A DNA stretch of 64,000 bases from Rubrivivax sp. (GCA_044375195.1 JBILNB010000015.1:7619-71618), one strand, 5' to 3'; numbered from the stretch's first letter, positions 3 through 15,771 are shown. Numbers and translations are program-made. The notes: a model not told the origin generated them from the sequence alone.

Positions 3-1103
3 GCGTGGCCGCAACCCCCCGATGCCGCAGTGCGCCTGCATGCGCACCAGACCTACGCGCGACAGCAGGGGGCTGGTGCCCTCGTTTCAGTGCCGTTGCG
101 CTTGGACGACGAGGTCGTCGCCGTTCTCTGCCTGCAGCGCAAGGACGCCGGATTCGACGCCCAGGTCATCTGGGAACTGCGATTGATCGGCGAGGCCTGC
201 ATACGCAGGCTGTGGGAGCTGCATCGGACGGATCGGTGGTTCGGAGCCCGCTGGTGGTCCGCGTCGACCCGCTGGGTGGACCAGATGCTCGGCCCGAGCC
301 ACACGGGTTTGAAGCTGGCCGGCTTGGGTGCGGTCGGCACGCTGGCGACCGCAGCATTGCTTCCATGGCCGTATCGGGTCGACGCCCCGCTGTCCCTGCG
401 CAGCGAGGACGTCCTGTTCGTGCCGGCTCCCTTCGACGGCTATCTGCGGCGGGTCGATGTGCGTGTCGGCGATCAGGTGGAGACAGGTCGCGTTCTTCTG
501 GAACTTGATACGCGCGAGCTTGTCCTCGAGGAGTCGATGGCAGTTGCTGACGAATTGAGGTACCGGTACGAAGCCGAGAAGGCTCAGGGCAGCCGGCAGC
601 TGGCCGAAATGCAGATCGCCCGTGCGCGGCAGCAGCAGGCCGCCTCCAAGCTCGGCCTGATCCGGCACCAGCTCTCCAACGCTCATGTGCGTGCGCCGTT
701 CCCGAGCGTGGTGGTCGAGGGGGAACTGAAGAAGAACCTGGGTGCCCCGGTGCGCAAGGGCGATCTGCTGGTCAAGCTCGCGCGCGCTTCCGACACCTAT
801 CTCGAGGTCGAGGTCGATCAGGCCTACGTGCACGAGATCCAGACGGGCTCCAAAGGTGAGTTTGCACTGGTCGGGCGGCCTGACCTGAAGTACGCCTTTG
901 TCATCGACCGCATCGATCCGCAGTCCACCCAGCGCGAGACGCGCAACGTGTACCTGGTGCGCGGTCGCATCGAGGCGGGCTACCAGACGTGGTGGCGACC
1001 GGGTATGGGAGGCAGCGCACGCATCGATGTCGGACAGCGCAGCCTGCTGTGGATCATGACGCACAGGACGATACGGTTTCTGCGGGAGGTGTTCTGGATC
1101 TGA
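3..1103 (+). CDS. GAF-domain HlyD/MFP periplasmic adaptor (5'-partial, runs off window start)
   Basis: GAF-like tail (LVSVPLRLDDEVVAVLCLQR), TM helix, barrel-sandwich motif APFDGYLRRVDVRVGDQV, coiled hairpin, APFPSVV and C-terminal RPGMGGSARIDVG. The frame is open to the window edge. Confidence 0.85.
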   Translation, partial: AWPQPPDAAVRLHAHQTYARQQGAGALVSVPLRLDDEVVAVLCLQRKDAGFDAQVIWELRLIGEACIRRLWELHRTDRWFGARWWSASTRWVDQMLGPSHTGLKLAGLGAVGTLATAALLPWPYRVDAPLSLRSEDVLFVPAPFDGYLRRVDVRVGDQVETGRVLLELDTRELVLEESMAVADELRYRYEAEKAQGSRQLAEMQIARARQQQAASKLGLIRHQLSNAHVRAPFPSVVVEGELKKNLGAPVRKGDLLVKLARASDTYLEVEVDQAYVHEIQTGSKGEFALVGRPDLKYAFVIDRIDPQSTQRETRNVYLVRGRIEAGYQTWWRPGMGGSARIDVGQRSLLWIMTHRTIRFLREVFWI

Positions 1104-1105
1104 GC

Positions 1106-3082
1106 GTGGCAGGGGAGCAGGCTGCGGTCTGGCCGCTGCCCCGTGCTTCTCGCTTGCCCGAGGGCCTGGACCTGTACGCGCACGACGTGCGCGGCTGGTT
1201 GCGCCGCCGTCCTGCCCTTGGGCGTGAGTTGCGGCGGCTGTCGCTGGAGTGCGCGGCGGCCTGCGCCGCGCTGCAGGACTTGGGCGAGGACACATTCGAA
1301 GCCCGTATCGGTGAAGCTCGCGACGCCATGCGCCGAGATCCGCTGCGGGCCCGAGGTGGCCTTGTCGAGGTCCTTGCCGTCGTGGGCGAGGCAGCGGCGC
1401 GCGTCCTTGGGATGCGGCCCTACCCAGTGCAGTTCATGGCCGCCCTGGCGCTGCAGCGCGGCGTGCTTGCCGAGATGGCCACGGGCGAGGGCAAGACTCT
1501 CACCGTCGCGCTCGCTGGGGTGCTAGCTGGCTGGACCGGGCGACCTTGTCACGTCATCACGTCGAACGACTATCTGGCGAGCCGTGATGCGCATGAGATG
1601 GAGCCGCTGTATCGTCGGTGCGGCCTGTCGGTGGCCGGGGTGAATGCCGCCGTCGAGCCTGCGAAGCGGCCTGCGCTGTATGGCCGCGATGTGGTTTACG
1701 TGACCGCCAAGGAACTGTTGGCCGACCACCTGCGCGATGAACTTGCGGCCCGCGCAGGGCGTGACCCCCGGCGCCTGGCTTTCGAGAACTGGCTTCAGGG
1801 TCATGCCACTTCGCCATCGCCATCCACCATACTGCTGGTGCGTGGTCTGCATGCCGCTATCGTGGACGAGGCCGACAACGTCCTGATCGACGAAGCCGTC
1901 ACCCCCCTCATCCTGTCTGCGCCCCGCAACAGTCACGGCCTGGGCGATGCAGCGCGGCTCATGGCCGAGTTGGGGATGCGGTTGCGAGAAGGCGAAGACT
2001 ACGAACTCCTTCCCCAGCGGCGTACCGTGGCCCTGAGGGCTGGCGCACGACTGGCCTTGCGCGAGCTCACGTCTGCCTTGCCGCTGACCTGGCGCGCCGA
2101 GCCGAGGCGTGAGGAACTCCTCCGTCAGGCCCTGACGGTGAAGCACTTCATCCTGCCGAACCATCAGTACGTTGTTGACGACGGGAAGATCGTGCTGCTG
2201 GACGAATTTACGGGCCGTTTGACGCCCGGGCGGACGCTGATGGCAGGGCTGCACCAGGCCGTCGAGGCGAAGGAAGGCCTGGACATCACCGATCCGAACG
2301 AGTCACTGGGGCAGTTGAGCTTTCAGACCTTCTTCAGGCGCTTCCCGCGGCTGGCGGGCACCAGCGGTACGGCGCGCGAAGCGGCAGCCGAGTTCTGGCG
2401 AATCTACGGGCTCGTCGTTCTGCCCATCCCGACCCACCGTCCACGTCTGACGGTGACCGCGCCCGCGCGCGTGTTCGCCACCGCCCACGAGCGGTGGCAG
2501 GTCGTCACGCAGCATGTGGCGAGCCTGCACGAAAAAGGACAACCTGTGCTCGTCGGTGTGCGTAGCGTCGCCGCCAGCCTGGTGCTCGCGCGTGAACTCG
2601 AGGCCCGAGGGCTGCGGTTTGCGTTGCTGAACGCGGTTCTGCACGAGCAGGAGGCAGGCATCGTCGCCCAGGCTGGAGAAGCCGGACGCATCACCATTGC
2701 CACGAACATGGCCGGGCGAGGTACGGACATACGCCTCGGACCTGGGGTTGCAACGCTCGGCGGCTTGCATGTCGTCATCGCCGAGGCGAACGAGTCGGCG
2801 CGAGTGGCGCGGCAATTGGCTGGGCGCTGTGGCAGACAAGGCGACCCAGGCAGCGTTGCGATCTTGCTCAGTCTCGAGGACGGACTCGTGCTGCGCTTCA
2901 TGCCCGCCTTGCTGCGCAGTGTCCTTGCACCATTGGCCCGAACCGGGGCTGACTGGAAGCATGCGATCCTGGCCTGGGGTCTTCGCCTGGCGCAGCGTCG
3001 CGCCGAATCCGAGGCTTTCGCACGCCGCCGGGCCGTATTGAAGGCCGACGACTGGCTCGACAAGGCACTGCCCTTCGAGTGA
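1106..3082 (+). CDS. Short SecA paralog (DEAD motor and preprotein cross-linking region; lacks wing, two-helix finger and C-terminal tail)
   Basis: EMATGEGKT, HVITSNDYLASRD, DEADNVLIDEAVTPLIL, LHQAVEAKEG, TNMAGRGTDI, QLAGRCGRQGDPG. GTG at 1106 follows the upstream stop; only ~658 aa. Confidence 0.9.
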   Translation: MAGEQAAVWPLPRASRLPEGLDLYAHDVRGWLRRRPALGRELRRLSLECAAACAALQDLGEDTFEARIGEARDAMRRDPLRARGGLVEVLAVVGEAAARVLGMRPYPVQFMAALALQRGVLAEMATGEGKTLTVALAGVLAGWTGRPCHVITSNDYLASRDAHEMEPLYRRCGLSVAGVNAAVEPAKRPALYGRDVVYVTAKELLADHLRDELAARAGRDPRRLAFENWLQGHATSPSPSTILLVRGLHAAIVDEADNVLIDEAVTPLILSAPRNSHGLGDAARLMAELGMRLREGEDYELLPQRRTVALRAGARLALRELTSALPLTWRAEPRREELLRQALTVKHFILPNHQYVVDDGKIVLLDEFTGRLTPGRTLMAGLHQAVEAKEGLDITDPNESLGQLSFQTFFRRFPRLAGTSGTAREAAAEFWRIYGLVVLPIPTHRPRLTVTAPARVFATAHERWQVVTQHVASLHEKGQPVLVGVRSVAASLVLARELEARGLRFALLNAVLHEQEAGIVAQAGEAGRITIATNMAGRGTDIRLGPGVATLGGLHVVIAEANESARVARQLAGRCGRQGDPGSVAILLSLEDGLVLRFMPALLRSVLAPLARTGADWKHAILAWGLRLAQRRAESEAFARRRAVLKADDWLDKALPFE

Positions 3083-3194
3083 GGGCGCAGCGACAGGGTG
3101 CGGTTCGGGTCGCAGGCTGCCGCTCTGAGTTGTTCAAGGTCTGGTGCAGACTGCCGCAAGGCGCAGCGCGCCGAGGGCCACAGGCGCCACCTTT

Positions 3195-3678: not shown

Positions 3679-5001
3679 TCAACCGCCCAGCAGGCGCTTG
3701 AGTGCTTCGCGGCACTCCGCATAGGGAGCCGGGGCGTTCATGTCCTGCCGCAGATAGTTCTCGAGCGCGGGACGCAGCTTTATCGCGAGGTCCAGGTCGC
3801 GGTTGCTGCCGCTCTCGTAGGCGCCCACCTGGATCAGGTCCTGGCTCTGCTGATATAGCGTCCACAGACGGCGGAAGCGATTGGCGCGCTCGAGGTCCTC
3901 GGGCGCGAGCAGTTGCGGCATCGCGCGCGAGATCGATCCCATCAGGTCGATGGCCGGGTAGTGCGAGGCATCGGCCAGGCGCCGCGAGAGCATGACCTGG
4001 CCGTCCAGCGAGGCGCGGGCGATGTCGACGATGGGGTCGTTGCCGTCGTCACCCTCGGCGAGCACGGTGTAGACGGAGGTGATCGACCCGTGGCCGCGGC
4101 GACCCGGGCCGCCGCGCTCGATGAGCGTGGGCAGCAGCGCGAACACCGAAGGGGGGTAGCCCTTCGCGGTGGGCGGCTCGCCGATGGCCAGGCCGACCTC
4201 GCGCTGCGCGTGGGCCACGCGTGTCAGGCTGTCCACCAGCATCAGCACATGGCGGCCCTGGTCGCGGAAGTGTTCGGCGATCCGGTGGGTGAGCTGCGCC
4301 GCCTTCAGCCTGAGCACCGGCGAGACATTGGCCGGCGCCGCGATGACGACCGACTTGGCCAGGCCCTGCGGCCCGAGCGACTCGTTGATGAAGGCCTGTA
4401 CCTCGCGCCCGCGCTCGCCGACGAGGCCGATGACGACGATCTCGGCCTCTGTGTAGCGCGTCATCATGCCCAGCAGCACGCTTTTGCCCACGCCGGAGCC
4501 GGCCACCAGGCCGATGCGCTGGCCACGGCCCATTGTCAGCAGCCCGTTGATGGCGCGTACCCCCACGTCGAGCACCTCACGGATCGGGCCACGCTCCATG
4601 GGGTTGAGGCTGTCGCCCTGAAGTACACCGCTGTGGCTGCACTGTGGTGGCGGGCGCCCGTCCAAGGGACGACCGCGGGCATCGATCACGCGCCCGAGCA
4701 ACGCTTGGCCCAGCGCCGCGTGCGCCGTCTGCCCGGTCACGCGCACGCGGCTGCCCGGCCCGATGCCCTGGGGCTCGGTGAAGGGCATGAGCAGCAGGCT
4801 CGAGCCCTGGAAGCCGACGACCTCGGCATCCACCATCTGGCCGTCGATGCCGGTAACCTCGCAGCAGGCTCCCAGCGGCGCGACGAGCCCGCTGGTCTCC
4901 AATCGAAGACCAACCAGACGGGTGACCACGCCGCAACGCGATGGCTCGGGCGCGTGGAGCTCGAGCACCAAGCGTTCGACCTCGAGCTCGAAGGCGGTCA
5001 T
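3679..5001 (-). CDS. fliI: Flagellar export ATPase FliI
   Basis: Walker A AGSGVGKS, GERGREV, DSLTRVAHAQREVGLAIGEPP, LDGQVMLSRRLA. ATG overlaps the fliH stop (ATGA). Confidence 0.95.
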   Translation of the reverse strand: MTAFELEVERLVLELHAPEPSRCGVVTRLVGLRLETSGLVAPLGACCEVTGIDGQMVDAEVVGFQGSSLLLMPFTEPQGIGPGSRVRVTGQTAHAALGQALLGRVIDARGRPLDGRPPPQCSHSGVLQGDSLNPMERGPIREVLDVGVRAINGLLTMGRGQRIGLVAGSGVGKSVLLGMMTRYTEAEIVVIGLVGERGREVQAFINESLGPQGLAKSVVIAAPANVSPVLRLKAAQLTHRIAEHFRDQGRHVLMLVDSLTRVAHAQREVGLAIGEPPTAKGYPPSVFALLPTLIERGGPGRRGHGSITSVYTVLAEGDDGNDPIVDIARASLDGQVMLSRRLADASHYPAIDLMGSISRAMPQLLAPEDLERANRFRRLWTLYQQSQDLIQVGAYESGSNRDLDLAIKLRPALENYLRQDMNAPAPYAECREALKRLLGG

Positions 5002-5879
5002 GACGACGCCGCCGCATCCTCGGCGCCGGTCGCTTGGCTCTGGAGCAACTGCGCGGCCAAGGCGTTGAGCCGGTTCTCCACCAAGTCCTGCACCAGCGTG
5101 CCGTCCGACATGGCTTCGACGCTGCCGCGCCGCAGATGTGCCGCCGGCTCGAGCGTGACAGTCTCGGCGAGCGTCTGGGTGAGCGGCCCCAGTGCGGCGA
5201 GATCCTCGGGATGCAGCCGCACCGTCACGTGCAGCGGATGCGGCCCCAGGGCCTGCAGCGCGTTGTCGACGAGGCGTGCAACCGCCTGCCCGCCCGAGCG
5301 CAGCTCGCCACGCAGCAGCTGCTCGGCCAGGTGCAGCGCCAATCGCCCCAGCGGCGCATGCAGACGCCGCGCGTCGCCGCGCAGCTCGTGAAGTGCGTGC
5401 AGGATCTCCTGTTGCAGGGCTGCCTGCCGCTCGGCCGCGGCGGCCCGGGCGGCGCCTGAGCTGCTCTCCCGGCGTGCGAGCTCGACCTCCGCCCGACGTT
5501 GTCCTTCGCGCACCCCCTGCGCGTGACCTTCGCTCCAGGCGGCCTGACGCTCCTCCTCCAGGCGTCGCTCCAGTGCCTCGCCATGGAGAGTGTGCATCGC
5601 GCCGGCCTGATCGTCCGACCCGCTCTCCCTGGGTTCGATCAGAGTGTGCTGCAAGAGATCGACACCGTCCTCGGTGCCGGGTTCGGAACCGGTGCCAGGT
5701 TTGCCGGCGAAGGGCGAGGGTAGCGACAGCTCGGGCAGGATCTCCCGGGGGCTGAAGCCGCGCGCGGGCTGTCGGTCGAGCGGCCAAGGCACGAAGGGCG
5801 CGTCGTCGCCGGCCGGCAGCAAGGCCGGCTCGGGTCGCCACGGGACCTGCGCGCGATCGGCCTCAGACGAAGTCATCAC
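4998..5879 (-). CDS. fliH: Flagellar assembly protein FliH
   Basis: AxxxGxxxG repeats (AWSEGHAQGVREG), VRLHPEDL; lies between fliG and fliI. Confidence 0.85.
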   Translation of the reverse strand: MMTSSEADRAQVPWRPEPALLPAGDDAPFVPWPLDRQPARGFSPREILPELSLPSPFAGKPGTGSEPGTEDGVDLLQHTLIEPRESGSDDQAGAMHTLHGEALERRLEEERQAAWSEGHAQGVREGQRRAEVELARRESSSGAARAAAAERQAALQQEILHALHELRGDARRLHAPLGRLALHLAEQLLRGELRSGGQAVARLVDNALQALGPHPLHVTVRLHPEDLAALGPLTQTLAETVTLEPAAHLRRGSVEAMSDGTLVQDLVENRLNALAAQLLQSQATGAEDAAASS

Positions 5880-7020
5880 CCCGTCCCGACAGCACCAGCT
5901 CGCCCTTGTCGGAGAGCTTGCGCGCGATGCGCATGATGGCCTTCTGCGCCTCCTCGACGTCGGTGATGCGCAGCGGCCCCTTGGACTCCATCTCGTCGAT
6001 GAACATCACGCGCGCGCGCGCCGACATGTTGTCGAAGAACTTGTCCTTCACGTACTCGTGCGCGCCCTTCAGCGCCGTCATCAGCATGTCGGGCTCGACG
6101 TTGCGCATCAGGGTCTGGATCGCGCGGTTGTCCACGGCCGAGAGGTTCTCGAACGTGAACATGTTGTCCTGGATCTTCTGCGTGAGGTCCGGGTCCAGCC
6201 GTGTCAGCTGGACCATGATCTGCGACTCCAGGTCGACCTTCACGAAGTTCATGATCTTGGCGGCGGCCTTGATGCCGCCGAAGCTCGAGGACTTGGCCGA
6301 CGAGCTGGTCGAGAACTGTTTCTTCATGATCGACTCCAGCTCCTCCATCGCCGAGGGCTGCACGGTCTCGAGGCTGGCCACGCGCTGCATGATCTCGGGA
6401 CGGGCGTCGGGCGGCAGGAAGTTCAGCACGTCGGCGGCGACGTCGTACTCCAGCACCGACAGGATGATGGCCACCACCTGAGGGTGCTCGCTGCGGATCA
6501 TCTCGGCGATGGAGCGCGCGTCCATCCACTTCAGGATCTCCAGCCCCTTGTTGCCCTGGCCCGGCATGATGCGGCTCAGCACCGAGGCGGCCTTGTCCTC
6601 GCCGAGCGCGCGCTTGAGCACCTTCTCGACGTAGTCGCCCGTGCCGAGACCGAGGTTGGTCTGCTTCTTCAGCATGGCGACGAAGTCGTCGAGCACGACG
6701 TTCACCGCTGCCTGCGACAGGTCGGCCACCGACACCATGGCCGCGCCCAGCGCCTGCACCTCCTTGGGGTTCAGGTAGCGGATGATCTCGGCCGCCTGCT
6801 GCTCGCCCAGCAGCAGCATCAGCACCGCGGCGCGCTGCGTGCTGGTGAGGGCGTCGAGCTCCTCGCGGAGCTCGGGCGTCATGACGATGTCGGGCGAGGC
6901 GGCGCCTTCCTCGGGGCCCTTGGCGTCCTTGCCCTCCGGCGCCTCCTTGCCCTTGGCGCCCTTGGCCTTGGGGTCGGCGGCGGCGCCCTTGCTGTCCTTG
7001 GGGTCCTTCTTGTCGGCCAT
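5863..7020 (-). CDS. fliG: Motor switch protein FliG
   Basis: QRAAVLMLLLGE, EHPQVVAIILS, MFTFENL, MSARAR, DVEEAQKAI; Lys-rich N-terminal extension. Confidence 0.95.
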   Translation of the reverse strand: MADKKDPKDSKGAAADPKAKGAKGKEAPEGKDAKGPEEGAASPDIVMTPELREELDALTSTQRAAVLMLLLGEQQAAEIIRYLNPKEVQALGAAMVSVADLSQAAVNVVLDDFVAMLKKQTNLGLGTGDYVEKVLKRALGEDKAASVLSRIMPGQGNKGLEILKWMDARSIAEMIRSEHPQVVAIILSVLEYDVAADVLNFLPPDARPEIMQRVASLETVQPSAMEELESIMKKQFSTSSSAKSSSFGGIKAAAKIMNFVKVDLESQIMVQLTRLDPDLTQKIQDNMFTFENLSAVDNRAIQTLMRNVEPDMLMTALKGAHEYVKDKFFDNMSARARVMFIDEMESKGPLRITDVEEAQKAIMRIARKLSDKGELVLSGRGDDFV

Positions 7021-7056
7021 GGCGTCGGCGGTGCGCGAAAGGGTGGGGCCGCAGCG

Positions 7057-8898
7057 TCAGCTGACGCGGATCATGGCCTTGAGGACGTTGGCCACCCGGC
7101 CTGAGTCCTCGGCCACCAGCATGCGGATCAGCGCCACCTTGTCGTCGTAGGTGTTGGCGGTGTCCAGCAGGTCGGCCGAGATGCTCGACTTCTTGGGCTT
7201 GAGCTTGGCCTTGATCTGCTCCAGGCTCTCGCCCTCGCCGATCTGGATCAGGCGCAGGTCCTCCTCGGTGAGCTCGCCCGATTCGGCGCGCGCCTTGGCG
7301 TCGGCTGCTGCCTGTTCGGCGGCCGCCTTGCGCGCCGCATAGAACTGCTGCAGGACGGGCCGCACGACGACGAAGAGGAAGGCGATGAACGCGAGCGCGA
7401 TCAAGCCGCTCTTGAGCCCCTCGTGGACACGGGTCTCGATGTACCAGGGGATGGTCTCGAGCGGCGGCGCCGGTTCGAAGCGCGCGGGCACCACCGTCAC
7501 CTCGTCGCCACGGCGCTGGTCGAAGCCGACGACGCTGCGCACGAGGTCGCGCATGCGGTCGAGTTCCTGCGGGGTGTAGGCCACGCGGGCGCCGGGCGCA
7601 GGCGCCGAGGCGCCCTCGGCCGGTGGCGGCACGGGGCGCTCGTTCACGACCACCGCGACGCTGATGCGCTGGATGCTGCCGGTGGCGTTCTTGACGTGGC
7701 GAACGCTGCGGTCGAGCTCGTAGTTGCGGGTGGACCGCGAGCTCATCGTCTGGTCCGACTCGCTGCGGCCCTCGGCCGCGTTGGCGGTCGTGTTGGGGGT
7801 CGTGGTGGGCGGCGTCGGCGCGGTGTTGGACAGGGCGCCGGGGATGCCCGCGGCGTCGCGCTTGGCCGCGCGGTCCTGCGCCAGGGTCTCCGAACGCGTC
7901 CTCGGGCCCTGGCCCCGGCTGTCGTAGTCCTCGGTCGTGCTCTCGACCTGGGTGAAGTCGAGCACCAGATTGACCTGGCCGCGCACATTGGTCTCCCCGA
8001 CCACCGGCGCCAGGATCTGCACGATGCGGTTGCGGTAGACCTCCTCGAGCTGCTGCTTGTGCTGCGTCTGGGCGGCGGTCATGCCGAGCTTCAGTTCCGA
8101 GGCCGACTCGGTGAGCAGCTGGCCGATGTTGTCGACCACGGTCACGTGTTCGGGCGCGAGGTAGGGCACGCTCGAAGAGACCAGGTGCACGATGGCCTGC
8201 ACCTGCGAGGGCGAGACCACGCGGCCGGGGTGCGGCGCGACGACCACCGAAGCCTTGGGCGGCGTGCGGTCGCGCACGAACACGCTCTGCTTGGGCTGGG
8301 CCAGGTGCACGCGCGCGCTCTGGACCGTGGCGATCTGCATGACGCTGCGCGCCAGCTCCTGCTCCATCGCCGCGTTGACGCGAACCTGTTCCATGAACTG
8401 GCTCGTCGTCATCGACGACTGGTCCTTCAACGCGTCCAGGCCGGTGTTGCTGGTGCGCGGCAGGCCCTGTGACGCCAGCAGCATCCGCGCCTCGTGGTAG
8501 CGCGTGCTGGGCACGGTGAGCTCGCCGCTGTTCGTGTCGATGCGCGGCTTGAAGTCGGCGTTGCGCAGCAGGTCGAAGGCCGCCTGGCGGTCGCCTTCGT
8601 TCATGCCCGGCAGCAGCGAACGGTAGGGTGTGGCCTGCATCGCCGCCCAGGTGATGGCAAAGATCACCAGCACCGCGACGATGATGATGGCCGGCAGGGA
8701 CCGCCGCACCGCGGGCTGGGCGAGCACGGCCCGCGCCGCCTGGGTCATCTGCTGCAGCGCGCCGCCCCCGGGGCGCAGCGCGGGCGCCGAGCCCGGCGCC
8801 GAGGTCACCGCGGACCCGGCCGCCGGCACGAGCGCCGCGCTGCCCGCCGCGCCTGCGCCTTCGCGGGTGGCCGATGTCGATGCGGGTGAGGTCGCCAC
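7057..8898 (-). CDS. fliF: MS-ring protein FliF
   Basis: Two TM segments, ARVHLAQPKQSVFVRD, KASVVV, NYELDRSVRHV, ISVAVVVN. Confidence 0.95.
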   Translation of the reverse strand: MATSPASTSATREGAGAAGSAALVPAAGSAVTSAPGSAPALRPGGGALQQMTQAARAVLAQPAVRRSLPAIIIVAVLVIFAITWAAMQATPYRSLLPGMNEGDRQAAFDLLRNADFKPRIDTNSGELTVPSTRYHEARMLLASQGLPRTSNTGLDALKDQSSMTTSQFMEQVRVNAAMEQELARSVMQIATVQSARVHLAQPKQSVFVRDRTPPKASVVVAPHPGRVVSPSQVQAIVHLVSSSVPYLAPEHVTVVDNIGQLLTESASELKLGMTAAQTQHKQQLEEVYRNRIVQILAPVVGETNVRGQVNLVLDFTQVESTTEDYDSRGQGPRTRSETLAQDRAAKRDAAGIPGALSNTAPTPPTTTPNTTANAAEGRSESDQTMSSRSTRNYELDRSVRHVKNATGSIQRISVAVVVNERPVPPPAEGASAPAPGARVAYTPQELDRMRDLVRSVVGFDQRRGDEVTVVPARFEPAPPLETIPWYIETRVHEGLKSGLIALAFIAFLFVVVRPVLQQFYAARKAAAEQAAADAKARAESGELTEEDLRLIQIGEGESLEQIKAKLKPKKSSISADLLDTANTYDDKVALIRMLVAEDSGRVANVLKAMIRVS

Positions 8899-8995
8899 GG
8901 CTCAGCGGTCCATCGTCAGGTGGATCGGGCGTGGCATGACCGACGTGCGTCCAGGCCTCGTCATCGCTCGGTCGTCGTGCGTTGGGGCCCCATCG

Positions 8996-9343
8996 TCACA
9001 CCGGCATGTTGAGGATGTCCTCGTAGGCCTTGAGCACCTTGTTGCGCATCTGCAGCGTGGCCTCGAAAGCCAGCGAGGACTTCTGCATCGCCAGCACCAC
9101 GTCCGTCAGCGGGACCTCGCCGCGCTCGTAGGCTTCCTGCATGCCGCGCGAGGCCAGCTGCGTGTCGTTGACCTCGGCCAGGGCCTGGCGCACCAGGTCG
9201 GCGAAGGGCGGCGCGGTCTGGGGGGCGGCCTGGGCGGATGCGGCGCTGCCCGGTTCGATGCCTGCGCCTGCCTCGGCCTGCAGCTTGCGCATGGTCTGCA
9301 GCATCGAGAGGATGTTGGCAGGGGAGGTGATGCGGTCGGACAT
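8996..9343 (-). CDS. fliE: Hook-basal body protein FliE
   Basis: FADLVRQALAEVN...DVVLAMQKSSLAFEATLQMRNKVLKAYEDILNMPV. Confidence 0.95.
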   Translation of the reverse strand: MSDRITSPANILSMLQTMRKLQAEAGAGIEPGSAASAQAAPQTAPPFADLVRQALAEVNDTQLASRGMQEAYERGEVPLTDVVLAMQKSSLAFEATLQMRNKVLKAYEDILNMPV

Positions 9344-9382
9344 GGCGGGGAAATCGGTGCGTGGGAGGTCGGTGTGCGGATG

Positions 9383-10843
<1,461 letters not shown>

Positions 10844-10855
10844 GATTGCGTGAGC

Positions 10856-10870
10856 GCAATTACCGTGCCA
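10856..10870 (-). promoter_or_regulatory. Sigma54 -24/-12 promoter of the fleT-like-fliEFGHIJ operon
   Basis: TGGCAC-GGTAA-TTGC on the minus strand. Confidence 0.85.
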
Positions 10871-10954
10871 GCAATTCAAAGCAGGTCAAGCGGTGACTTC
10901 ATCACCAAAGAGTTGAAAAAACGGCAAAACGGGTAAAACAGCATAACAGCGTGT

Positions 10955-10968
10955 GTCGGTTTATTGAC
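10955..10968. promoter_or_regulatory. FleQ-type binding box
   Basis: GTCGGTTTATTGAC (rc GTCAATAAACCGAC), close to the Pseudomonas FleQ consensus GTCaNTAAAtTGAC; ~85 bp upstream of the -24 element. Confidence 0.6.
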
Positions 10969-11048
10969 GCTTGCGGCTGGCGTGTGTTGTCGTGCCTGCG
11001 CTGCCCGCGGGCCGATTCGCTCATAGGGCCCGCAGGTGGTGCGTGCAC

Positions 11049-11252
11049 TCACCGGCCGGCGCTCTGTGGCGGCTTGGGATCGAACCCGCGACATTCCTGG
11101 CCCGAGGCCCGGTAGACCTCCTCCGAGGGCAGGGCCCGGGTCTTGATCTGCATGTTGCGGCAGAGGTAGGGCAGCCGCACGTCGTAGCTGATGGCCAGGT
11201 GCCTGCAGCGCCAGCAGGAGGGCGGGTCACGGGGAGGCTGACTGACAGGCAT
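11049..11252 (-). CDS. Small four-cysteine protein (putative metal binding)
   Basis: CWRCRH...LPYLC...SGQECRGFDPK, 67 aa, ATG start, directly downstream of fliS. Confidence 0.6.
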   Translation of the reverse strand: MPVSQPPRDPPSCWRCRHLAISYDVRLPYLCRNMQIKTRALPSEEVYRASGQECRGFDPKPPQSAGR

Positions 11253-11300
11253 TCCTGGCCGCGGCGCGCCGGCAAGGGGCAGGGCGGACCCGCCCTGGGA

Positions 11301-11723
11301 TCAACTGGGGCGCGCAGGCGCCGCCACGGGGGCACCGGCCGCCGGCGTCAGGGTGCGCCAGGCGTCGCGGATCTCGCGCATCAGTTCCGTGATCTCGTCG
11401 AGCGCGGCGAGGTCGTTGTAGGCGTGCACGTGCACGAGACGCCGGATCACGTAGCGGTACAACTCGTCGAGATTGCGGGCGACTTCGCCGCCGCGCTCGA
11501 AGTCCAGGCTGGACTGCAGCCCGATCACGATCCGCTGGACCTTGTTCACCTGGACGGACTTGGCCTGCGTCGACTGGTGCAGGATGTGCCCGCGAAGTGC
11601 AACCAAGGCGTCGACCAGGCCGTCGAACAGCATCTGCGTCAACTGCGCGCCGCGAGCGCCTGCCAGGCTGCTGGCGGCGTGGACGGAACCGTAGCTCCTG
11701 ATGGCGCGGGTCTGGTGCTGCAT
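11301..11723 (-). CDS. fliS: Flagellin chaperone FliS
   Basis: QLTQMLFDG, SLDFERGGEVARNLDELYRY, EIRDAW; GGAGG RBS. Confidence 0.9.
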   Translation of the reverse strand: MQHQTRAIRSYGSVHAASSLAGARGAQLTQMLFDGLVDALVALRGHILHQSTQAKSVQVNKVQRIVIGLQSSLDFERGGEVARNLDELYRYVIRRLVHVHAYNDLAALDEITELMREIRDAWRTLTPAAGAPVAAPARPS

Positions 11724-11758
11724 TCCAACCTCCGGGAATCGAATACGTCTTGATGAAG

Positions 11759-11785
11759 GATTCGACTCGAGGCCCCGCAACTTGA
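11759..11785 (-). promoter_or_regulatory. Candidate sigma28 promoter of fliS
   Basis: TCAAGTTG-N11-GTCGAATC; same geometry as the element upstream of flgM. Confidence 0.6.
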
Positions 11786-11819
11786 GTGTGGCGCTGTCGC
11801 GCGGCCTGCGCCCAGCTTT

Positions 11820-12464
11820 TCAGCGCGGGGGGCTGGCGGGGGCCGGCAGGGACGGCGTGGCCGGGGGCGCGGCGTCGGGGTCGGGCCCCATGAGCGTGTC
11901 CGACAGGCGGCTTCGCACCTCCAGGCGCGCCTTGCTGAACAGGTCGCGGACCGCGTCGTCCAGCGTCTGGCGCACCGAGGCCCACTGGGCCGGCCCCTGG
12001 GTCGCGAAGTCCTGCCCGCACTGGTAGACGAGTTGCGAGACGTTGGACGGCAGCCACGACTCCACGCTGCCGCGGGCGGTGTTGATGCGCCGCGCGCTCT
12101 GCGGCGTCTGGAACTTGCCGGCCTGACCGTCGCGCCGACCGTCCTCGAACAGGCCCTCGATGTGGCGGGTGAGCACGGGTTCGTAGCGCTGGCGCAGCAT
12201 CGAATCCTCGATCGCATCCAGCGGGTTCGCCTCGCTCGTCATCGTGTCCCACAGGGCCCGGCCGCTCAGGCTGCCGAAGGGGCCGCTCGGCGCGGCGGTG
12301 GCTGCCTGCGCGCCGCTCAGGCCCTTGACGGCCTCCATCGTGCTGCGCTCGATGCTGTTGACGCGGTCGATCAGGTAGATGGTCAGCAGCAGCACCAGCA
12401 GCATGGCCAGCGCGATCAGTCCCAGGAGCACGAGGTCCATGCTGAACTCAATGGCCCGTGACAC
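11820..12464 (-). CDS. Hypothetical protein with N-terminal TM anchor
   Basis: LVLLGLIALAMLLVLLLTIYLI followed by a globular region; overlaps the upstream ORF; start at 12464 (GTG) or 12440. Confidence 0.7.
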   Translation of the reverse strand: MSRAIEFSMDLVLLGLIALAMLLVLLLTIYLIDRVNSIERSTMEAVKGLSGAQAATAAPSGPFGSLSGRALWDTMTSEANPLDAIEDSMLRQRYEPVLTRHIEGLFEDGRRDGQAGKFQTPQSARRINTARGSVESWLPSNVSQLVYQCGQDFATQGPAQWASVRQTLDDAVRDLFSKARLEVRSRLSDTLMGPDPDAAPPATPSLPAPASPPR

Positions 12465-12984
12465 GGCCCGAAGAGCCGCTGTGGTCCGCTGGCGACGTGT
12501 CGTCCAGTTCTTCTCTCAGGAACTGCAGCACCTGGAACGGTTGCTCGAGCCTGAGTTCGATCAGGAACACGCGATCGGCGAGGTCCTGCATCTGGACGAT
12601 GGCCTGTTCGGCATTGATTTCGACGAGCTGGTACTGGCCGCCCAGGTCGAAGGCCCGCTGGGCGAACTCCTGGGGCAGGTAGACCCAGACCTGGCGGCCG
12701 CCCGCGGCGACGCGCTGGAACTCCGACGCCACCGGGGCTGGGGGGGCTTCCTTCCTGGCGACCAGGGCCCGTGCGGCTTGTGCCCGGTGGGCTGCGGTCT
12801 GCTCCGCGCCTTCGACGAAGGTCTTGTCCAGGTGGGCGCGGCACAGCAGCGCCATGCGGGTGCGCGCGCTGCGGGCGCTTTCGGGGTTGGCGCCGTGGCT
12901 GGCGGTCACCACCTTCTCGTAGGTGAGGCGGGCCTCTTCCTGGTCTTCGCCGGGGCCCGATGAGAAGAGTCGCTTCAGTATCAT
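12448..12984 (-). CDS. Hypothetical protein downstream of fliA
   Basis: 178-aa ORF with ATG 17 nt after the fliA stop; protein-like composition. Confidence 0.7.
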   Translation of the reverse strand: MILKRLFSSGPGEDQEEARLTYEKVVTASHGANPESARSARTRMALLCRAHLDKTFVEGAEQTAAHRAQAARALVARKEAPPAPVASEFQRVAAGGRQVWVYLPQEFAQRAFDLGGQYQLVEINAEQAIVQMQDLADRVFLIELRLEQPFQVLQFLREELDDTSPADHSGSSGRVTGH

Positions 12985-13001
12985 GGACGGTGTCGCAAGG
13001 G

Positions 13002-13715
13002 TCAGGGGGCCGGCTGCAGTTGCGCGCGCAGCTTGCGGGTCAAGCCAGACAGGATCTGGCTGACGCGGGATTCGGTCACTTCAAGAACCGCTCCGATCTC
13101 CTTCAGGTTCAGCTCCTCGACGTAGTAGAGCTTCAGGACCAGCCGCTCGCGCTCGCTCAACTCGTCGATGCTGCGAGCCAGAAGGTCGACCATCTGATGG
13201 TGCTCGAGGAGCGCGTCCGGTTGCCGCCGGCCGTCGTCGGCGACGTTCAGCGCCTCTTCGTCCACGACCTCGATCGAGTGCGTCTCATAGCGGTGCGCGG
13301 CATCGCGCTCCTTGTGGAACTGGGCCAGGTCCATCCCCAGGTGCGCGGCGACCTCGCTGGAGCGCGCGCGCCGTCCCACCTGCCCGGACACCTCGTTGAC
13401 GGCCGCTTCCTCGATGCGCTGGAACGCCACGGCCGAGCGCGGCATGCCCGTCATGCGGCGCACCTCGTCGACCATGGCGCCGCGGATGCGACTGAGGGCG
13501 AAACGCTCGAACTCCTCTCCCTTGGCGGGGTCGAAGGCTTGCGCGGCTTCGATCAAGCCCACCATGCCGACCTGCACGAGCTCCTCGGTGTCCATGAACG
13601 GGGGCAGGCGCACCTTCAGGTGCACCGCAACCCGCTTGACCATGGGCATATGCTCCCGGACCAGCGCCTCGGTCACGCTGGGCGCCGGTCGGTAGAGCTT
13701 CAAGGCGGCGTCCAT
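13002..13715 (-). CDS. fliA: Flagellar sigma factor sigma28
   Basis: ELVQVGMVGLIEAAQAFD, RIRGAMVDEVR, LYYVEELNLKEIGAVLEVTESRVSQI. Confidence 0.95.
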   Translation of the reverse strand: MDAALKLYRPAPSVTEALVREHMPMVKRVAVHLKVRLPPFMDTEELVQVGMVGLIEAAQAFDPAKGEEFERFALSRIRGAMVDEVRRMTGMPRSAVAFQRIEEAAVNEVSGQVGRRARSSEVAAHLGMDLAQFHKERDAAHRYETHSIEVVDEEALNVADDGRRQPDALLEHHQMVDLLARSIDELSERERLVLKLYYVEELNLKEIGAVLEVTESRVSQILSGLTRKLRAQLQPAP

Positions 13716-13737
13716 CCAGATCCCGAGGGCCTGCCGC

Positions 13738-14565
13738 TCAGGCGGTGGCGGACGGCAGCCCGACCATGCGCGGCAGCAGGAACTGGATGCGCCCGGAGGG
13801 CTTGAGCGCGGGCCCGAGTGCGGCCACCTTGCCGGCCAGCTGCCGGAAACTCCGCGCCGCCGTGCTGTCAGGCGCATGGCGATTGACGGGCAGGTAGCGC
13901 TCCTGGGCGGCCTGCACCGCGTCGTCGCGCTCGATCGACCCGAGATACCCCAGCTTCGCTCCGAGAAAGCGCTGCGCGACGTCGGCCATGTGGTTGAACA
14001 ACTTGCGGCCGTGCGCCTGGCTGTTGACCATGTTGGGCAGCAGGTAGACGTCCTCGAGGCCCTCCTCGAGGGTCAGGATCTTCAGCAGGCCGTAGGCGTC
14101 GGCGATGGAGGCGGGCTGGTCGCACACGACGACGAAGCGCCGCTGGCACGCGGCCATGAAGGAGACGACCGACGGCGTGATGCCGGCCGCCACGTCCACC
14201 AGCAGGCAGTCCACCGGCTCGTCCAGGTTGTCCATCACGTGGATCACGGACGAGACCTGCGCCTCGTCCATCGACGCCAGCTCGCGCAGGCCCGACGCGC
14301 CCGGGATGAGCCGCACGCCCGGCGCCGCATCGACCAGCACCTCGCCCAGCGTCTTCTCGCCGCGCAGCACGTGCCCCATGTTGAAGCTTGCGCGCACGCC
14401 CAGCGCCAGCTGCGCGTTCGCCAGCCCGAGGTCGGCGTCGAGCACCATGACCCGCAGCCCCCGCTCGGCCAGCGCAATGGCGAGGCTGACCGAGACCGTG
14501 GTCTTGCCCACGCCGCCCTTGCCGCTGGCCACGCCGATGACCATGGGCCGAAAATAGTCAGGCAT
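13738..14565 (-). CDS. flhG: MinD-like flagellar number regulator FlhG/FleN
   Basis: [33 protein letters not shown]; follows flhF. Confidence 0.9.
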
Positions 14566-15745
14566 GGCGCACCCCCGCGCTGTCGAGTTCGCCTGTTGGC
14601 ACGCTGGTCTCGCTTCTATTTTCGAGTAATGGCGTAAGAGTATCTTCAATCAGTTTACGCGTATTGACGGTCAGGGATGTCTCCCCCGAGGTGGCCCAGC
14701 GCGTTCCCGAGACCGCGCGCACCTGCCATGGTCTGCCGTCGAGCAGGTGGTCGATCAGCGGCCAGGGCCGTTCGGCAATGTCGAGTCGGGTCACGAGCAT
14801 GTTCGGGCCTTCTGCGGTGGCGGCCACCCGGCGCAGGGTCTGGACCGAGGCGTCGGCGGCGACCACTGCATGGAATTGGGCATCGTTTTCTGCGGTGAGG
14901 AAGGAGGCCAGGTCGGCAGCGAGTTGTCGTCCGTCGCTGTGCGCGGTGTCGACGAACACCGCCGAGCGGTCGGACAGCTCGTCGAGCAGCACGCTCAAGG
15001 CTTCGGGGTCGCGGGCGCGGTAGGCGTCGACGCCGCACTGTGCGGCCAGCGCCTGGGTCTGGCTCCAGGCGCCCATGCGCGCGTCCTGGTAGCTGATCCA
15101 GACCACATGGTCGGGGCCCAGACGCGAGGCGGCCTGGGCCACGAGGCGGGCGCACATCAGCGTCTTGCCGGCGCCCGCCGGACCGTAGAGCACGTGGATG
15201 CCGGACCAGTCCGTGTCCGAAGTGGTGCAGAACATCGGCTCCAGCAACCTGCCCAGGTGCTCGCCGAGGCGGCCGAAGGCTTCGGTGGCGGTCTGCGCCT
15301 GCGCCAGCGCGGGTGCCAGCCGCGCCTGCAGGCGCGAGGGCACGCCCTCGTCGAGCATCGCGTTCACCACGGCCCGCACCTCGGGGTGGGCGGTCGCGAT
15401 CGCGTGGTCCGCGCCGAGCCGGCTGCTCCACAGCATGTCCTGGCGGAGCTGTGCGATCTCGGACTTGATGGTGTCCACGATGTCGCGTTCGCGCACGGCC
15501 GGGACCGGCGCGCCCGGGCGATTGCGCTCGTTCGTCCCGGCAGCGGCCCGCGCCGCCTCCACGTCAACGGTCGCGGCCGTGTCGGTGACTGCCGCTGGCG
15601 CCTGCGTCGTCTCCACGGCGATGATCAGCTCGGTCATCCCCTCCAGCTCGGCGCTGGATATGAAGAGCGCGTTCTTGCCGTGCTCGAGAACTGCGCGTTC
15701 CGAGGCGGCGCGCAGGTCCCGGGCAACGATGCGTTTGAGTTCCAT
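14558..15745 (-). CDS. flhF: SRP-family GTPase FlhF (divergent)
   Basis: N-terminal [11 protein letters not shown]-loop [23 protein letters not shown]; lies between flhA and flhG. Confidence 0.8.
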
Positions 15746-15771
15746 GGCGTCTCGAGGCGTGGTTCTTCGGC

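What the first reader, a model, noticed from the sequence alone, without database searches (positions are those of the whole stretch)
3..3082. Truncated SecA paralog coupled to a GAF-HlyD type I secretion adaptor
Seen: a ~658-aa SecA with intact motor motifs that stops shortly into the scaffold helix, starting 2 nt after a GAF-HlyD adaptor gene. Established: canonical SecA needs the downstream scaffold/two-helix finger to push preproteins through SecYEG, and HlyD proteins serve ABC/TolC systems, not Sec. Inference: this may be an ATPase repurposed to energise or feed a type I-like exporter, perhaps replacing the ABC ATPase for a giant substrate encoded upstream. I know of no experimental characterisation.
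Basis: partly seen in the sequence, partly recalled or inferred. Interest (0 to 1): 0.72.

Follow-up and report, generated by a model that had tools for sequence, protein, structure and literature searches.

The report
SecA-like motor of giant-protein exporter
This is a naturally shortened copy of the SecA protein-export motor that sits in a conserved gene set with TolC-type channel parts and a membrane protease instead of the usual ABC pump. That gene set was noted by computer analysis in 2015, has never been tested, and appears dedicated to exporting some of the largest bacterial proteins known.

Summary
Window 1106-3082 (+) encodes a 658-aa SecA paralog with an intact ATPase motor and preprotein-binding domain. 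It ends about 30-40 residues into the scaffold helix, in a conserved tail (DDWxxSALPF). It starts 2 nt after the stop codon of a GAF-HlyD adaptor gene (window 3-1103, the last 366 of 621 aa).

The short length is family-wide, and no SecA C-terminal remnant follows the gene.

The same contig from metagenomes shows, upstream: the end of a giant repeat protein, a metalloprotease-HlyD fusion with intact HExxH/NPLxxxD motifs, SapC and a TolC-like protein. No ABC ATPase is present.

Linkage is conserved. Of 12 short SecAs in species genomes, 10 have the protease-HlyD gene directly upstream, against 0 of 68 canonical SecAs.

This module was already described computationally (Kamneva, Poudel and Ward 2015, PMC4452313). 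I found no experimental work on it.

What I add concerns the cargo. In proteobacterial relatives the operon is followed by giants of 13,168-22,385 aa. Each starts with a basic leader plus VE[RK]LEDRxLLSAEP, which is NCBIfam's LEPR-XLL domain. Conversely, 26 of 33 such giant N-termini have the SecA-like gene just upstream.

Best reading: an ABC-less, SecA-powered, TolC-linked exporter that recognises an N-terminal signal on giant proteins. It is a new member of a known but uncharacterised kind.

The parts
3..1103 (+). C-terminal 366 aa of a 621-aa GAF-HlyD membrane fusion protein. The gene is cut by the window start; the stop codon is 1101-1103. The window holds the end of the cytoplasmic GAF domain, one membrane helix and the periplasmic adaptor domain.
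   Evidence: Pfam HlyD_3 4.6e-13, HlyD_D23 6.6e-11 and partial GAF. The full-length gene in L001 7049-8914 passes the GAF_2, GAF and HlyD_3 cut-offs. Homologs have a single hydrophobic helix between GAF and HlyD.
306..368 (+). Predicted single transmembrane segment of GAF-HlyD (GLKLAGLGAVGTLATAALLPW).
   Evidence: Position found. The equivalent segment passes the hydropathy threshold in 7 of 8 homologs, but not in this protein. This is therefore an inference by alignment position.
1106..3082 (+). SecA-like ATPase of 658 aa: motor domains NBD1 and NBD2, preprotein cross-linking domain, and the first part of the scaffold helix. It lacks the helical wing domain, two-helix finger and C-terminal linker.
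   Evidence: The predicted structure has mean pLDDT 77; SecA structures are the top PDB matches, with TM-scores up to 0.78.
1154..1171 (+). Family-specific N-terminal motif LPEGLD (residues 17-22), inside an N-terminal region of about 85 aa with no match to solved SecA structures.
   Evidence: G20 and D22 are invariant; L17 and P18 are near-invariant in 21 homologs. The PDB alignment starts only at residue 86. Any role in docking is inferred.
1475..1498 (+). Walker A motif MATGEGKT (residues 124-131).
   Evidence: Invariant in the family alignment; coordinates.
1862..1876 (+). DEAD-like Walker B motif VDEAD (residues 253-257).
   Evidence: D254, E255 and D257 are invariant; coordinates.
1961..2266 (+). 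Preprotein cross-linking domain (residues 286-387).
   Evidence: Pfam SecA_PP_bind 7.1e-18 over residues 286-387.
2822..2851 (+). NBD2 motif GRCGRQGDPG (residues 573-582), which contains the arginine-finger region.
   Evidence: Invariant in the family; coordinates.
2954..3043 (+). Retained first part of the scaffold helix (residues 617-646).
   Evidence: AlphaFold secondary structure shows helix H617-646. It aligns to T. maritima SecA up to residue 650.
3047..3079 (+). Family-specific C-terminal tail DDWLDKALPFE (residues 648-658), predicted flexible.
   Evidence: D648, W650, A654, L655, P656 and F657 are invariant. pLDDT is below 50 for residues 644-658. The tail profile hits only proteins of 634-721 aa at their C-terminus. 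A docking role is inferred.
3083..3194 (.). Intergenic gap between the end of the locus and the convergent fliJ gene. No SecA remnant lies here.
   Evidence: The simple scan found no promoter-like or terminator-like site.

Best explanation
The 658-aa protein is the cytoplasmic ATPase of a dedicated, ABC-less secretion machine that spans the cell envelope and exports giant surface proteins.

Shown by sequence:
- It keeps SecA's ATP-driven motor and polypeptide clamp.
- It has lost the parts that couple SecA to SecYEG (wing domain, two-helix finger, C-terminal linker).
- It ends in a conserved tail of its own.
- It is co-encoded with HlyD-type adaptors. One carries a cytoplasmic GAF domain. One is fused to a polytopic membrane metalloprotease with intact zinc-site motifs. 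In most relatives there is also a small periplasmic adaptor.
- In Proteobacteria the set also includes a TolC-like outer-membrane channel, SapC, and a giant protein that starts with a basic leader followed by VE[RK]LEDRxLLSAEP (the LEPR-XLL domain).

Inferred:
- The adaptors and TolC form the periplasmic and outer-membrane duct.
- The SecA-like motor docks on the cytoplasmic domains of the GAF-HlyD or protease-HlyD proteins through its private N- and C-terminal motifs.
- It binds the N-terminal leader and threads the unfolded giant protein N-terminus first. Export could then begin during translation, which would suit proteins of 13,000-36,000 aa.
- The metalloprotease domain removes the leader and may contribute the inner-membrane passage.
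- The GAF domain gates or regulates the process.

In this window's organism the gene order is rearranged: giant protein, protease-HlyD, SapC, TolC, GAF-HlyD, SecA-like.
For: Motor and truncation:
- The motor is intact and the truncation is conserved.

Linkage from the SecA side:
- Among 80 species-genome loci, 10 of 12 short SecAs have the protease-HlyD gene directly upstream, and GAF-HlyD too where the contig reaches.
- None of the 68 canonical SecAs (787-1224 aa) does. My hand hypergeometric calculation gives p of about 4e-11.

Operon in Proteobacteria:
- Azohydromonas australica, a Magnetococcales genome and four Comamonadaceae-like contigs carry SapC, OEP, small HlyD, GAF-HlyD, protease-HlyD, SecA-like and a protein of about 300 aa.
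- In four of these six loci a giant gene follows: 13,168, 14,668, 14,552 and 22,385 aa. The Magnetococcales contig ends before any giant, and L092 shows none downstream.

Cargo signal:
- All four visible giant N-termini carry LE[DE]RxL[LM]SA[ED]P. One scores above the NCBIfam NF012209 cut-off.
- An Opitutaceae locus has an LEPRLLL protein 1 kb downstream of the SecA-like gene.

Linkage from the cargo side:
- 26 of 33 metagenome loci that encode this giant N-terminus and have at least 3.1 kb of upstream sequence carry the SecA-like gene on the same strand.
- The leader has net charge of about +7 and no hydrophobic core.

Protease and adaptor:
- H214, E215, H218 and FNxNPLxRxD316 are invariant in the protease-HlyD protein, which has 6-7 membrane helices.
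- Its best NCBIfam hit is the HExxH intramembrane metalloprotease of daptide clusters, E 5e-56.
- Its periplasmic part folds like MexA and MacA, with an alpha-hairpin.

No ABC ATPase:
- No ORF with ABC motifs occurs in 888 kb of family loci, against 13 in 1.235 Mb of control loci.

Literature:
- PMC4452313 describes the same module and the same ATPase idea.
- Preprint 10.64898/2026.03.19.712371 reports that the Chlorobium chlorochromatii giants (36,806 and 20,647 aa) have LEPRxLL N-termini, flanking sapC and tolC, and a co-expressed, recently acquired 'secA'.
Against: - There is no experimental evidence of any kind.
- No component is an obvious inner-membrane protein-conducting channel.
- The S2P-type fold of the protease domain rests on motifs and sub-threshold family hits. 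The PDB profile hit to the S2P structure 3B4R was not significant (E 0.38).
- In this window's organism the N-terminus of the giant protein is off the contig, so its leader is unseen.
- The small HlyD and the 300-aa protein are not in the visible 8.9 kb upstream.
- Most loci from Planctomycetota and Verrucomicrobiota show no adjacent giant gene.
- 7 of 33 giant N-termini lack the operon upstream.
- An ABC transporter encoded elsewhere in the genome cannot be excluded.
- SecA's signal-peptide groove is partly built from the missing two-helix finger, so how a leader would be bound is unclear (my knowledge of SecA structures).
Confidence: 0.6

Rival explanations
1. The SecA-like protein is a cytoplasmic chaperone, unfoldase or targeting factor that holds or delivers the giant protein. 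Translocation itself is driven by something else, such as an ABC transporter encoded elsewhere or the proton-motive force.
For: No component is a recognisable protein-conducting channel or energy coupler in the membrane. The clamp domain is retained. SecA fragments without the C-terminal third are soluble ATPases; the E. coli N68 fragment (5K9T) is among the structural matches.
Against: No ABC ATPase lies within 10 kb in any of about 70 loci. The SecA-like gene overlaps or abuts the membrane components throughout the family, which suggests a stoichiometric complex. All ATPase motifs are invariant.
Confidence: 0.2
2. It is an accessory SecA that still works through SecYEG, as Gram-positive and mycobacterial SecA2 do. 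It would move the giant protein into the periplasm, where the HlyD/TolC parts pick it up (two-step export).
For: It is a second SecA-type gene with a dedicated substrate set. In the 2015 tree its clade is sister to actinobacterial SecA2. The predicted model superposes best on SecY-engaged SecA (6ITC TM-score 0.78), although this may be a modelling artefact.
Against: It lacks the two-helix finger, wing domain and C-terminal linker, whereas solved SecA2 structures align over their whole length. It scores below every SecA2 model cut-off. No SecY2 or accessory Sec genes lie nearby. The leader has no hydrophobic core, so it is not a Sec signal peptide.
Confidence: 0.1
3. The module processes and exports a small peptide, as in modified-peptide (RiPP) or signalling systems. 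Its position next to giant genes is incidental.
For: The protease domain's nearest named relatives are leader peptidases of peptide natural-product clusters: daptide HExxH at 5e-56 and YydH/LiaK at 8e-9. JGI names it 'putative peptide zinc metalloprotease'. Most Planctomycetota and Verrucomicrobiota loci show only the four core genes.
Against: Adjacency to giant genes holds when tested from both directions. No small precursor or modification genes lie in the operons, whose genes are contiguous. SapC and TolC are also paired with LEPRxLL giants in Chlorobium.
Confidence: 0.06
4. It is a decaying or truncated secA pseudogene with no function.
For: It has lost about a third of canonical SecA. Its GC3 (0.77) is lower than that of neighbouring genes.
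Against: The length, all catalytic motifs and a private C-terminal motif are conserved across phyla. No C-terminal remnant follows the gene.
Confidence: 0.02

Closest known systems
Secondary SecA_DEAD protein / type-I-secretion-like module (Kamneva, Poudel and Ward, PLoS One 2015, PMC4452313)
   Same: The same family and gene set: a SecA_DEAD protein without the wing/scaffold domain, Peptidase_M50-like HlyD, GAF-HlyD, a further HlyD, sometimes OEP, and no ABC transporter. That paper also proposed that the SecA-like protein supplies the ATPase and noted horizontal transfer.
   Different: That work named no substrate and did not mention giant proteins, SapC or an N-terminal signal. It treated the M50 domain as a possible pore and did not check its catalytic motifs. 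In this window the gene order is rearranged and the small HlyD is not seen.
Classical type I secretion systems (HlyBD-TolC; LapBCE for giant adhesins)
   Same: A HlyD-type adaptor plus a TolC-type channel, one-step export of very large repetitive proteins, and genes clustered with the substrate.
   Different: There is no ABC transporter. Several adaptor paralogs replace the single one. The signal appears to be N-terminal rather than C-terminal. No RTX repeats occur in the last 828 aa of the local giant protein. A membrane metalloprotease is fused to one adaptor.
Accessory SecA2 systems (Gram-positive SecA2/SecY2, mycobacterial SecA2)
   Same: A second SecA paralog dedicated to special, often very large or glycosylated, substrates.
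   Different: By my knowledge of these systems, SecA2 keeps the scaffold and two-helix finger and works with SecY or SecY2. This protein lacks them, has no SecY2 nearby, and pairs instead with HlyD and TolC parts. All SecA2 models score below cut-off.
E. coli SecA-N68, the engineered C-terminal truncation (PDB 5K9T)
   Same: Nearly the same domain content: motor plus preprotein-binding domain.
   Different: N68 is a laboratory fragment. By my knowledge, removing the C-terminal regulatory part raises its uncontrolled ATPase activity. The natural protein adds half the scaffold helix, a conserved SALPF tail and a distinct N-terminus.
Peptidase-containing ABC exporters and HExxH intramembrane leader peptidases (daptide MpaP-like, YydH/LiaK)
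   Same: A leader-cleaving protease physically joined to the export machinery. The protease domain is homologous to the HExxH intramembrane family.
   Different: Here the protease is fused to a periplasmic adaptor rather than to an ABC transporter, and the presumed substrates are thousands of times larger.
SecA_DEAD domains embedded in giant Omnitrophota proteins (preprint 10.1101/2023.11.21.568195)
   Same: SecA motor and preprotein-binding domains without the scaffold/wing domain, associated with giant proteins and proposed to help their own export.
   Different: There the domain is part of the giant protein itself and neighbours type II secretion-like genes. Here it is a separate 658-aa protein in an operon with HlyD and TolC.

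Membership tests
Canonical SecA (NCBIfam TIGR00963 / NF009538) | DEAD-type motor (NBD1 and NBD2) with Walker A, Walker B and the arginine-finger motif | tested here: met
Canonical SecA (NCBIfam TIGR00963 / NF009538) | Preprotein cross-linking domain | tested here: met
   Pfam SecA_PP_bind 7e-18.
Canonical SecA (NCBIfam TIGR00963 / NF009538) | Complete scaffold domain, wing domain and two-helix finger | tested here: not met
   No SecA_SW hit. The alignment ends at T. maritima residue 650 of 871. No homolog of the C-terminal part occurs anywhere in the window.
Canonical SecA (NCBIfam TIGR00963 / NF009538) | Score above the curated family cut-off | tested here: not met
   486 bits against 800, and 488 against 814.
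Accessory SecA2 (TIGR03714, TIGR04221, TIGR04397, NF012136) | Score above the curated cut-off | tested here: not met
   423 against 930, 384 against 725, 445 against 1085, and 327 against 1100.
Accessory SecA2 (TIGR03714, TIGR04221, TIGR04397, NF012136) | Accessory Sec partners (SecY2, Asp proteins) nearby, or use of SecYEG | tested here: not met
   No such genes lie in the locus or its relatives. Use of SecYEG cannot be tested with these tools.
Secondary SecA_DEAD / T1SS-like module (PMC4452313) | SecA_DEAD protein lacking the wing/scaffold domain | tested here: met
Secondary SecA_DEAD / T1SS-like module (PMC4452313) | Co-encoded Peptidase_M50-like HlyD protein | tested here: met
   L001 2486-4651, on the same contig and 4.3 kb upstream of the SecA-like gene.
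Secondary SecA_DEAD / T1SS-like module (PMC4452313) | Co-encoded GAF-HlyD protein | tested here: met
   Window 3-1103, which corresponds to L001 7049-8914.
Secondary SecA_DEAD / T1SS-like module (PMC4452313) | Third, small HlyD adaptor of about 290 aa | tested here: inconclusive
   Present in the related loci that extend across the core genes, but not found in the window or in the visible 8.9 kb upstream, where the contig ends inside the giant gene.
Secondary SecA_DEAD / T1SS-like module (PMC4452313) | A canonical secA also present in the genome (the protein is a second copy) | not testable with these tools
The 2015 paper reports that these proteins are secondary copies.
Classical type I secretion system | ABC transporter as the inner-membrane energiser | tested here: not met
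   No ORF has Walker A plus the ABC signature in the window or in 888 kb of related loci. Control loci gave 13.
Classical type I secretion system | HlyD-family adaptor and TolC-family outer-membrane protein | tested here: met
Classical type I secretion system | C-terminal secretion signal, usually with RTX GGxGxD repeats | tested here: not met
   No GGxGxD motif and no RTX Pfam hit in the last 828 aa of the adjacent giant protein. A non-RTX C-terminal signal cannot be excluded.
LEPR-XLL domain proteins (NCBIfam NF012209), as the presumed cargo class | N-terminal LEPRxLL-type motif scoring above the cut-off | tested here: met
   Met for the Azohydromonas giant protein (21.6 bits against 17). 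The motif is seen in 4 of 4 related giants and in 50 ORF N-termini from the 56 metagenome loci. NCBI names such fragments as LEPR-XLL. Not testable for this window's own giant protein, whose N-terminus is off the contig.

The most novel reading that the evidence does not exclude
The short N-terminal LEPR-XLL leader (a basic stretch followed by VERLEDRxLLSAEP) is the address label of a distinct secretion pathway. That pathway consists of a SecA-derived motor, several HlyD-type adaptors (one fused to a leader-cleaving intramembrane metalloprotease, one carrying a GAF sensor domain) and TolC. It would export the largest bacterial proteins (13,000-36,000 aa) N-terminus first, possibly while they are still being translated, and without an ABC transporter. 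This would be a separate type of Gram-negative secretion system, and it would explain how giants such as Chlorobium chlorochromatii Cag_663 and Cag_665 leave the cell.
Probability: 0.45. Interest if true: 0.85.

Novelty: new member of a known kind. Interest (0 to 1): 0.6.

Why it matters
How bacteria export proteins of tens of thousands of residues is an open question. A C-terminal type I signal would require the whole chain to be made and kept unfolded before export can start.

This locus belongs to a widespread but untested gene set that swaps the ABC pump of type I secretion for a stripped-down SecA motor and a membrane protease. My survey ties it to giant proteins that share an N-terminal leader. 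That makes the question testable. The module occurs in the cultured strain Azohydromonas australica and, according to the 2015 paper, in the genetically tractable Methylobacterium extorquens AM1.

If confirmed, three things would follow:
- a new secretion route would be defined;
- thousands of 'SecA' and 'hypothetical' annotations could be reassigned;
- a compact N-terminal tag for exporting very large proteins would become available.

Tried and rejected
- Species-genome scan. It gave only 12 short SecAs and no pair of short plus canonical secA from one assembly, so I could not confirm the housekeeping copy that way.
- Look-up of P0104 found no record.
- Promoter and terminator scan of the 3' end found nothing.
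- S2P fold of the protease domain. A PDB profile search gave only an insignificant hit to 3B4R (E 0.38). The fold search of the whole model returned only the adaptor part, matching MexA and MacA. The protease assignment therefore rests on invariant motifs and sub-threshold family hits.
- Protein search with the giant leader alignment returned only short fragments, so it gave no size distribution.
- No RNA runs hold the locus; only lake-water DNA metagenomes do. Expression is untested.
- Greedy longest-ORF calling picked antisense ORFs in these high-GC loci. I relied instead on homology-anchored ORFs and the collection's own gene calls.
- Considered and rejected: a frameshifted or split secA, and a functional link to the adjacent flagellar genes, which are on the opposite strand and are absent from the related loci examined.


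Full report
**What is in the window**

Two co-directional genes occupy window 3-3082. The first runs off the window start and ends with TGA at 1101-1103. The second starts with GTG at 1106, two bases later, and ends at 3082.

The first gene product is the last 366 aa of a 621-aa protein. Its full-length form, read from an identical metagenome contig (L001), passes the Pfam cut-offs for GAF, GAF_2 and HlyD_3. Homologs have one membrane helix between the GAF and HlyD parts. That places about 340 aa in the cytoplasm and the adaptor domain in the periplasm.

The second gene product (658 aa) has the SecA_DEAD, SecA_PP_bind and P-loop_SecA domains but no wing/scaffold domain. It scores far below the curated cut-offs of every NCBIfam SecA and SecA2 model. 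The Walker A motif, the DEAD-like Walker B motif, TNMAGRGTD and GRCGRQGDPG are all present and invariant across 21 homologs.

**Where the protein ends**

Sequence alignment to solved structures stops at residue 650 of 871 in Thermotoga maritima SecA and at residue 603 of 841 in Bacillus subtilis SecA.

An AlphaFold model (mean pLDDT 77) ends in one long helix, residues 617-646, followed by a low-confidence tail. Its best PDB matches are SecA structures, with TM-scores up to 0.78. The engineered E. coli N68 truncation is also among the matches.

The protein therefore keeps the motor, the clamp domain and roughly the first half of the scaffold helix. It lacks the wing domain, the two-helix finger and the C-terminal linker.

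**This is not a broken gene**

- More than 120 database clusters share the same three domains at 616-719 aa.
- The last 11 residues (DDWLDKALPFE) contain six invariant positions.
- A profile of the 69-aa tail, searched against 1.84 billion representative proteins, found 181 matches. Every full-length match was 634-721 aa, with the match at its extreme C-terminus.
- The C-terminal 270 aa of a canonical SecA finds nothing in the window or in any related locus. That excludes a frameshifted or split gene.

**Upstream context in this organism**

The same contig recovered from lake-water metagenomes shows, in order:

- the C-terminal 828 aa of a repeat protein (DUF5649 repeats, no RTX motif) whose start lies off the contig;
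- a 721-aa protein whose start overlaps that gene's stop;
- SapC;
- a 533-aa OEP/TolC-family protein;
- GAF-HlyD;
- the SecA-like gene.

The 721-aa protein has an N-terminal domain of about 150 aa, then 6-7 membrane helices. These carry invariant HExxH (H214, E215, H218) and FNxNPLxRxD316 motifs. A final membrane helix and a periplasmic adaptor follow.

Its best named relatives are HExxH intramembrane metalloproteases of peptide natural-product clusters, at E 5e-56 but below the cut-off. Its modelled periplasmic part matches MexA and MacA, including an alpha-hairpin.

Downstream of the SecA-like gene, on the other strand, a large flagellar cluster begins. It fills most of the rest of the window and looks unrelated.

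**Conserved linkage**

A scan of species-representative genomes returned 80 SecA loci.

- 68 encode canonical SecA of 787-1224 aa. None has a protease-HlyD or GAF-HlyD neighbour.
- 12 encode short SecAs. Ten of these have the protease-HlyD gene directly upstream, and GAF-HlyD upstream of that where the contig reaches. My own hypergeometric calculation gives p of about 4e-11.
- The ten come from Opitutaceae, Planctomycetaceae, Tepidisphaerales, Phycisphaerae, Burkholderiales and Rubrivivax.

A small, signal-peptide-bearing HlyD of about 290 aa completes a four-gene core in the loci that extend across the core genes.

Six proteobacterial loci were examined: Azohydromonas australica, a Magnetococcales genome and four Comamonadaceae-like contigs. 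All contain SapC, OEP, small HlyD, GAF-HlyD, protease-HlyD, SecA-like and a conserved unannotated protein of about 300 aa, usually in that order. In Azohydromonas, SapC instead follows the SecA-like gene. In four of the six a giant gene of 13,168, 14,668, 14,552 or 22,385 aa follows.

No ORF with ABC-ATPase motifs occurs in 888 kb of these loci. The same test found 13 in 1.235 Mb of canonical-secA loci.

**Prior knowledge**

Kamneva, Poudel and Ward (PLoS One 2015, PMC4452313) reported 'secondary SecA_DEAD domain proteins' that have lost the wing-scaffold domain. They found these co-encoded with Peptidase_M50-like, HlyD and GAF-HlyD proteins, and sometimes OEP, without an ABC transporter.

They suggested that the SecA-like protein supplies ATPase activity and that the M50 protein might form the pore. 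They named no substrate.

I found no experimental follow-up in the paper library. The held part of a large 2021 review of tripartite systems (the first 300,000 characters) does not mention the variant.

**What this analysis adds: the likely cargo and its signal**

All four giant proteins whose N-terminus is visible begin with a basic stretch followed by LE[DE]RxL[LM]SA[ED]P.

- The Azohydromonas protein scores above the cut-off for NCBIfam NF012209, the LEPR-XLL domain. NCBI names related fragments the same way.
- An Opitutaceae locus has an ORF with LEPLEPRLLLDA 1 kb downstream of its SecA-like gene.

The reverse test started from an alignment of the giant N-termini and searched metagenomes. 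It returned 56 loci.

- Of the 33 with at least 3.1 kb of upstream sequence, 26 carry the SecA-like gene on the same strand. Usually the whole operon is present.
- The leader sits at a median position of 26, is preceded by a net charge of about +7, and has no hydrophobic core. It is therefore not a Sec signal peptide.

A 2026 preprint (10.64898/2026.03.19.712371) reports related observations in Chlorobium chlorochromatii.

- The two giants, of 36,806 and 20,647 aa, carry N-terminal LEPRxLL domains.
- They are flanked by sapC and tolC.
- They are co-expressed with a recently acquired 'secA', Cag_1676.
- The authors propose C-terminus-first type I export and do not assign a role to that secA.

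I could not verify that Cag_1676 is the short form.

**Proposed mechanism**

Shown by sequence:
- a motor with intact ATPase motifs and a clamp domain, without the SecY-coupling parts, and with private N- and C-terminal motifs;
- several adaptor paralogs, one with a catalytically intact membrane metalloprotease and one with a cytoplasmic GAF domain;
- TolC;
- no ABC ATPase;
- giant neighbours with a shared N-terminal leader.

Inferred:
- The adaptors and TolC build the duct.
- The motor docks on their cytoplasmic domains, recognises the leader and threads the chain N-terminus first, possibly during translation.
- The protease removes the leader.
- The GAF domain regulates the process.

The main gap is the inner-membrane passage, which no component obviously provides. 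I give this reading a confidence of 0.6.

The rivals are:
- a chaperone or targeting role, with energy supplied from elsewhere (0.2);
- an accessory SecA that still uses SecYEG in a two-step route (0.1);
- a small-peptide processing system (0.06);
- a pseudogene (0.02).

**Limits for this particular window**

- The giant protein's N-terminus, the small HlyD and the 300-aa protein are not visible, because every contig breaks inside the giant gene.
- The gene order differs from that of relatives.
- A canonical secA in the same genome was not confirmed.
- Third-position GC content (GC3) of the two genes (0.77 and 0.81) is below that of the flagellar neighbours (0.88-0.97). That fits the horizontal transfer proposed in 2015.

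**Verdict**

The locus is a new, rearranged member of a module that was described computationally in 2015 and has never been tested. Its link to LEPR-XLL giant proteins appears not to have been drawn in the papers I could search, and it makes the module worth experimental attention.

Noticed in passing
window 3195-56777 (both strands): Most of the rest of the window is a flagellar gene cluster (fliJ, fliI, fliH, fliG, fliF, fliE, flhA, fliM, flgE, flgI, flgK). Several products are unusually long: a 989-aa FliK-like protein (18104-21073), a second FliK-like ORF of 477 aa (39295-40728), a 936-aa FlgE (46116-48926) and a 910-aa FlgK (53107-55839). An 817-aa ORF (42088-44541) has a FlgA chaperone domain only at its C-terminus.
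   Followed up: partly
window 35383-38349 (-): A 988-aa ORF with coding-like GC3 (0.81) has no Pfam hit. It lies at the edge of the most GC-rich part of the window (0.73-0.77).
   Followed up: no
window 3-3082 compared with 3679-17886: GC3 of the SecA-like gene (0.77) and GAF-HlyD gene (0.81) is clearly lower than that of the neighbouring flagellar genes (0.88-0.97). This is consistent with horizontal acquisition of the secretion locus.
   Followed up: partly
L086 12739-13701; L088 9705-10379; L089 and L090 12043-12903; L091 12034-12954; L092 12028-12957: A conserved protein of about 300 aa, with no Pfam or NCBIfam hit and a shared GWLAAG...PF.T.Y C-terminal motif, sits between the SecA-like gene and the giant gene in proteobacterial operons. 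It is absent from the visible part of this window's locus and from loci of Planctomycetota and Verrucomicrobiota.
   Followed up: partly
L119, L128, L141, L146 (metagenome loci): Some LEPR-XLL giant N-termini are preceded only by a HlyD-like ORF (about 310-390 aa) and no SecA-like operon. They may be additional cargo genes served by an operon elsewhere in the genome.
   Followed up: no
L068 9827-11785; L079 9584-11767: Two planctomycete genomes (Thermoguttaceae, Pirellulaceae SH467) have short SecA ORFs (652 and 727 aa) that are closer to canonical SecA. They have no HlyD or protease neighbours and no C-terminal ORF nearby. These may be the SecA domain rearrangements noted for Planctomycetes in the 2015 paper.
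   Followed up: partly
L027 12584-21709 (-): In a Rubrivivax genome the operon lies next to a convergent ORF of more than 3,041 aa with RHS repeats and cadherin, Big_9, PKD and dockerin domains. This is a different kind of giant protein from the beta-helical ones elsewhere.
   Followed up: partly
L001 2486-2489: The protease-HlyD start codon overlaps the stop codon of the giant repeat protein by 4 nt, which suggests translational coupling of cargo and exporter in this organism.
   Followed up: no
window 3-3082: The sequence is present at 97% or more of sampled words in 20 lake-water metagenome runs, so the host is a recurrent freshwater bacterium. The closest named relative of the SecA-like protein is from Azohydromonas australica (66% identity).
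   Followed up: partly
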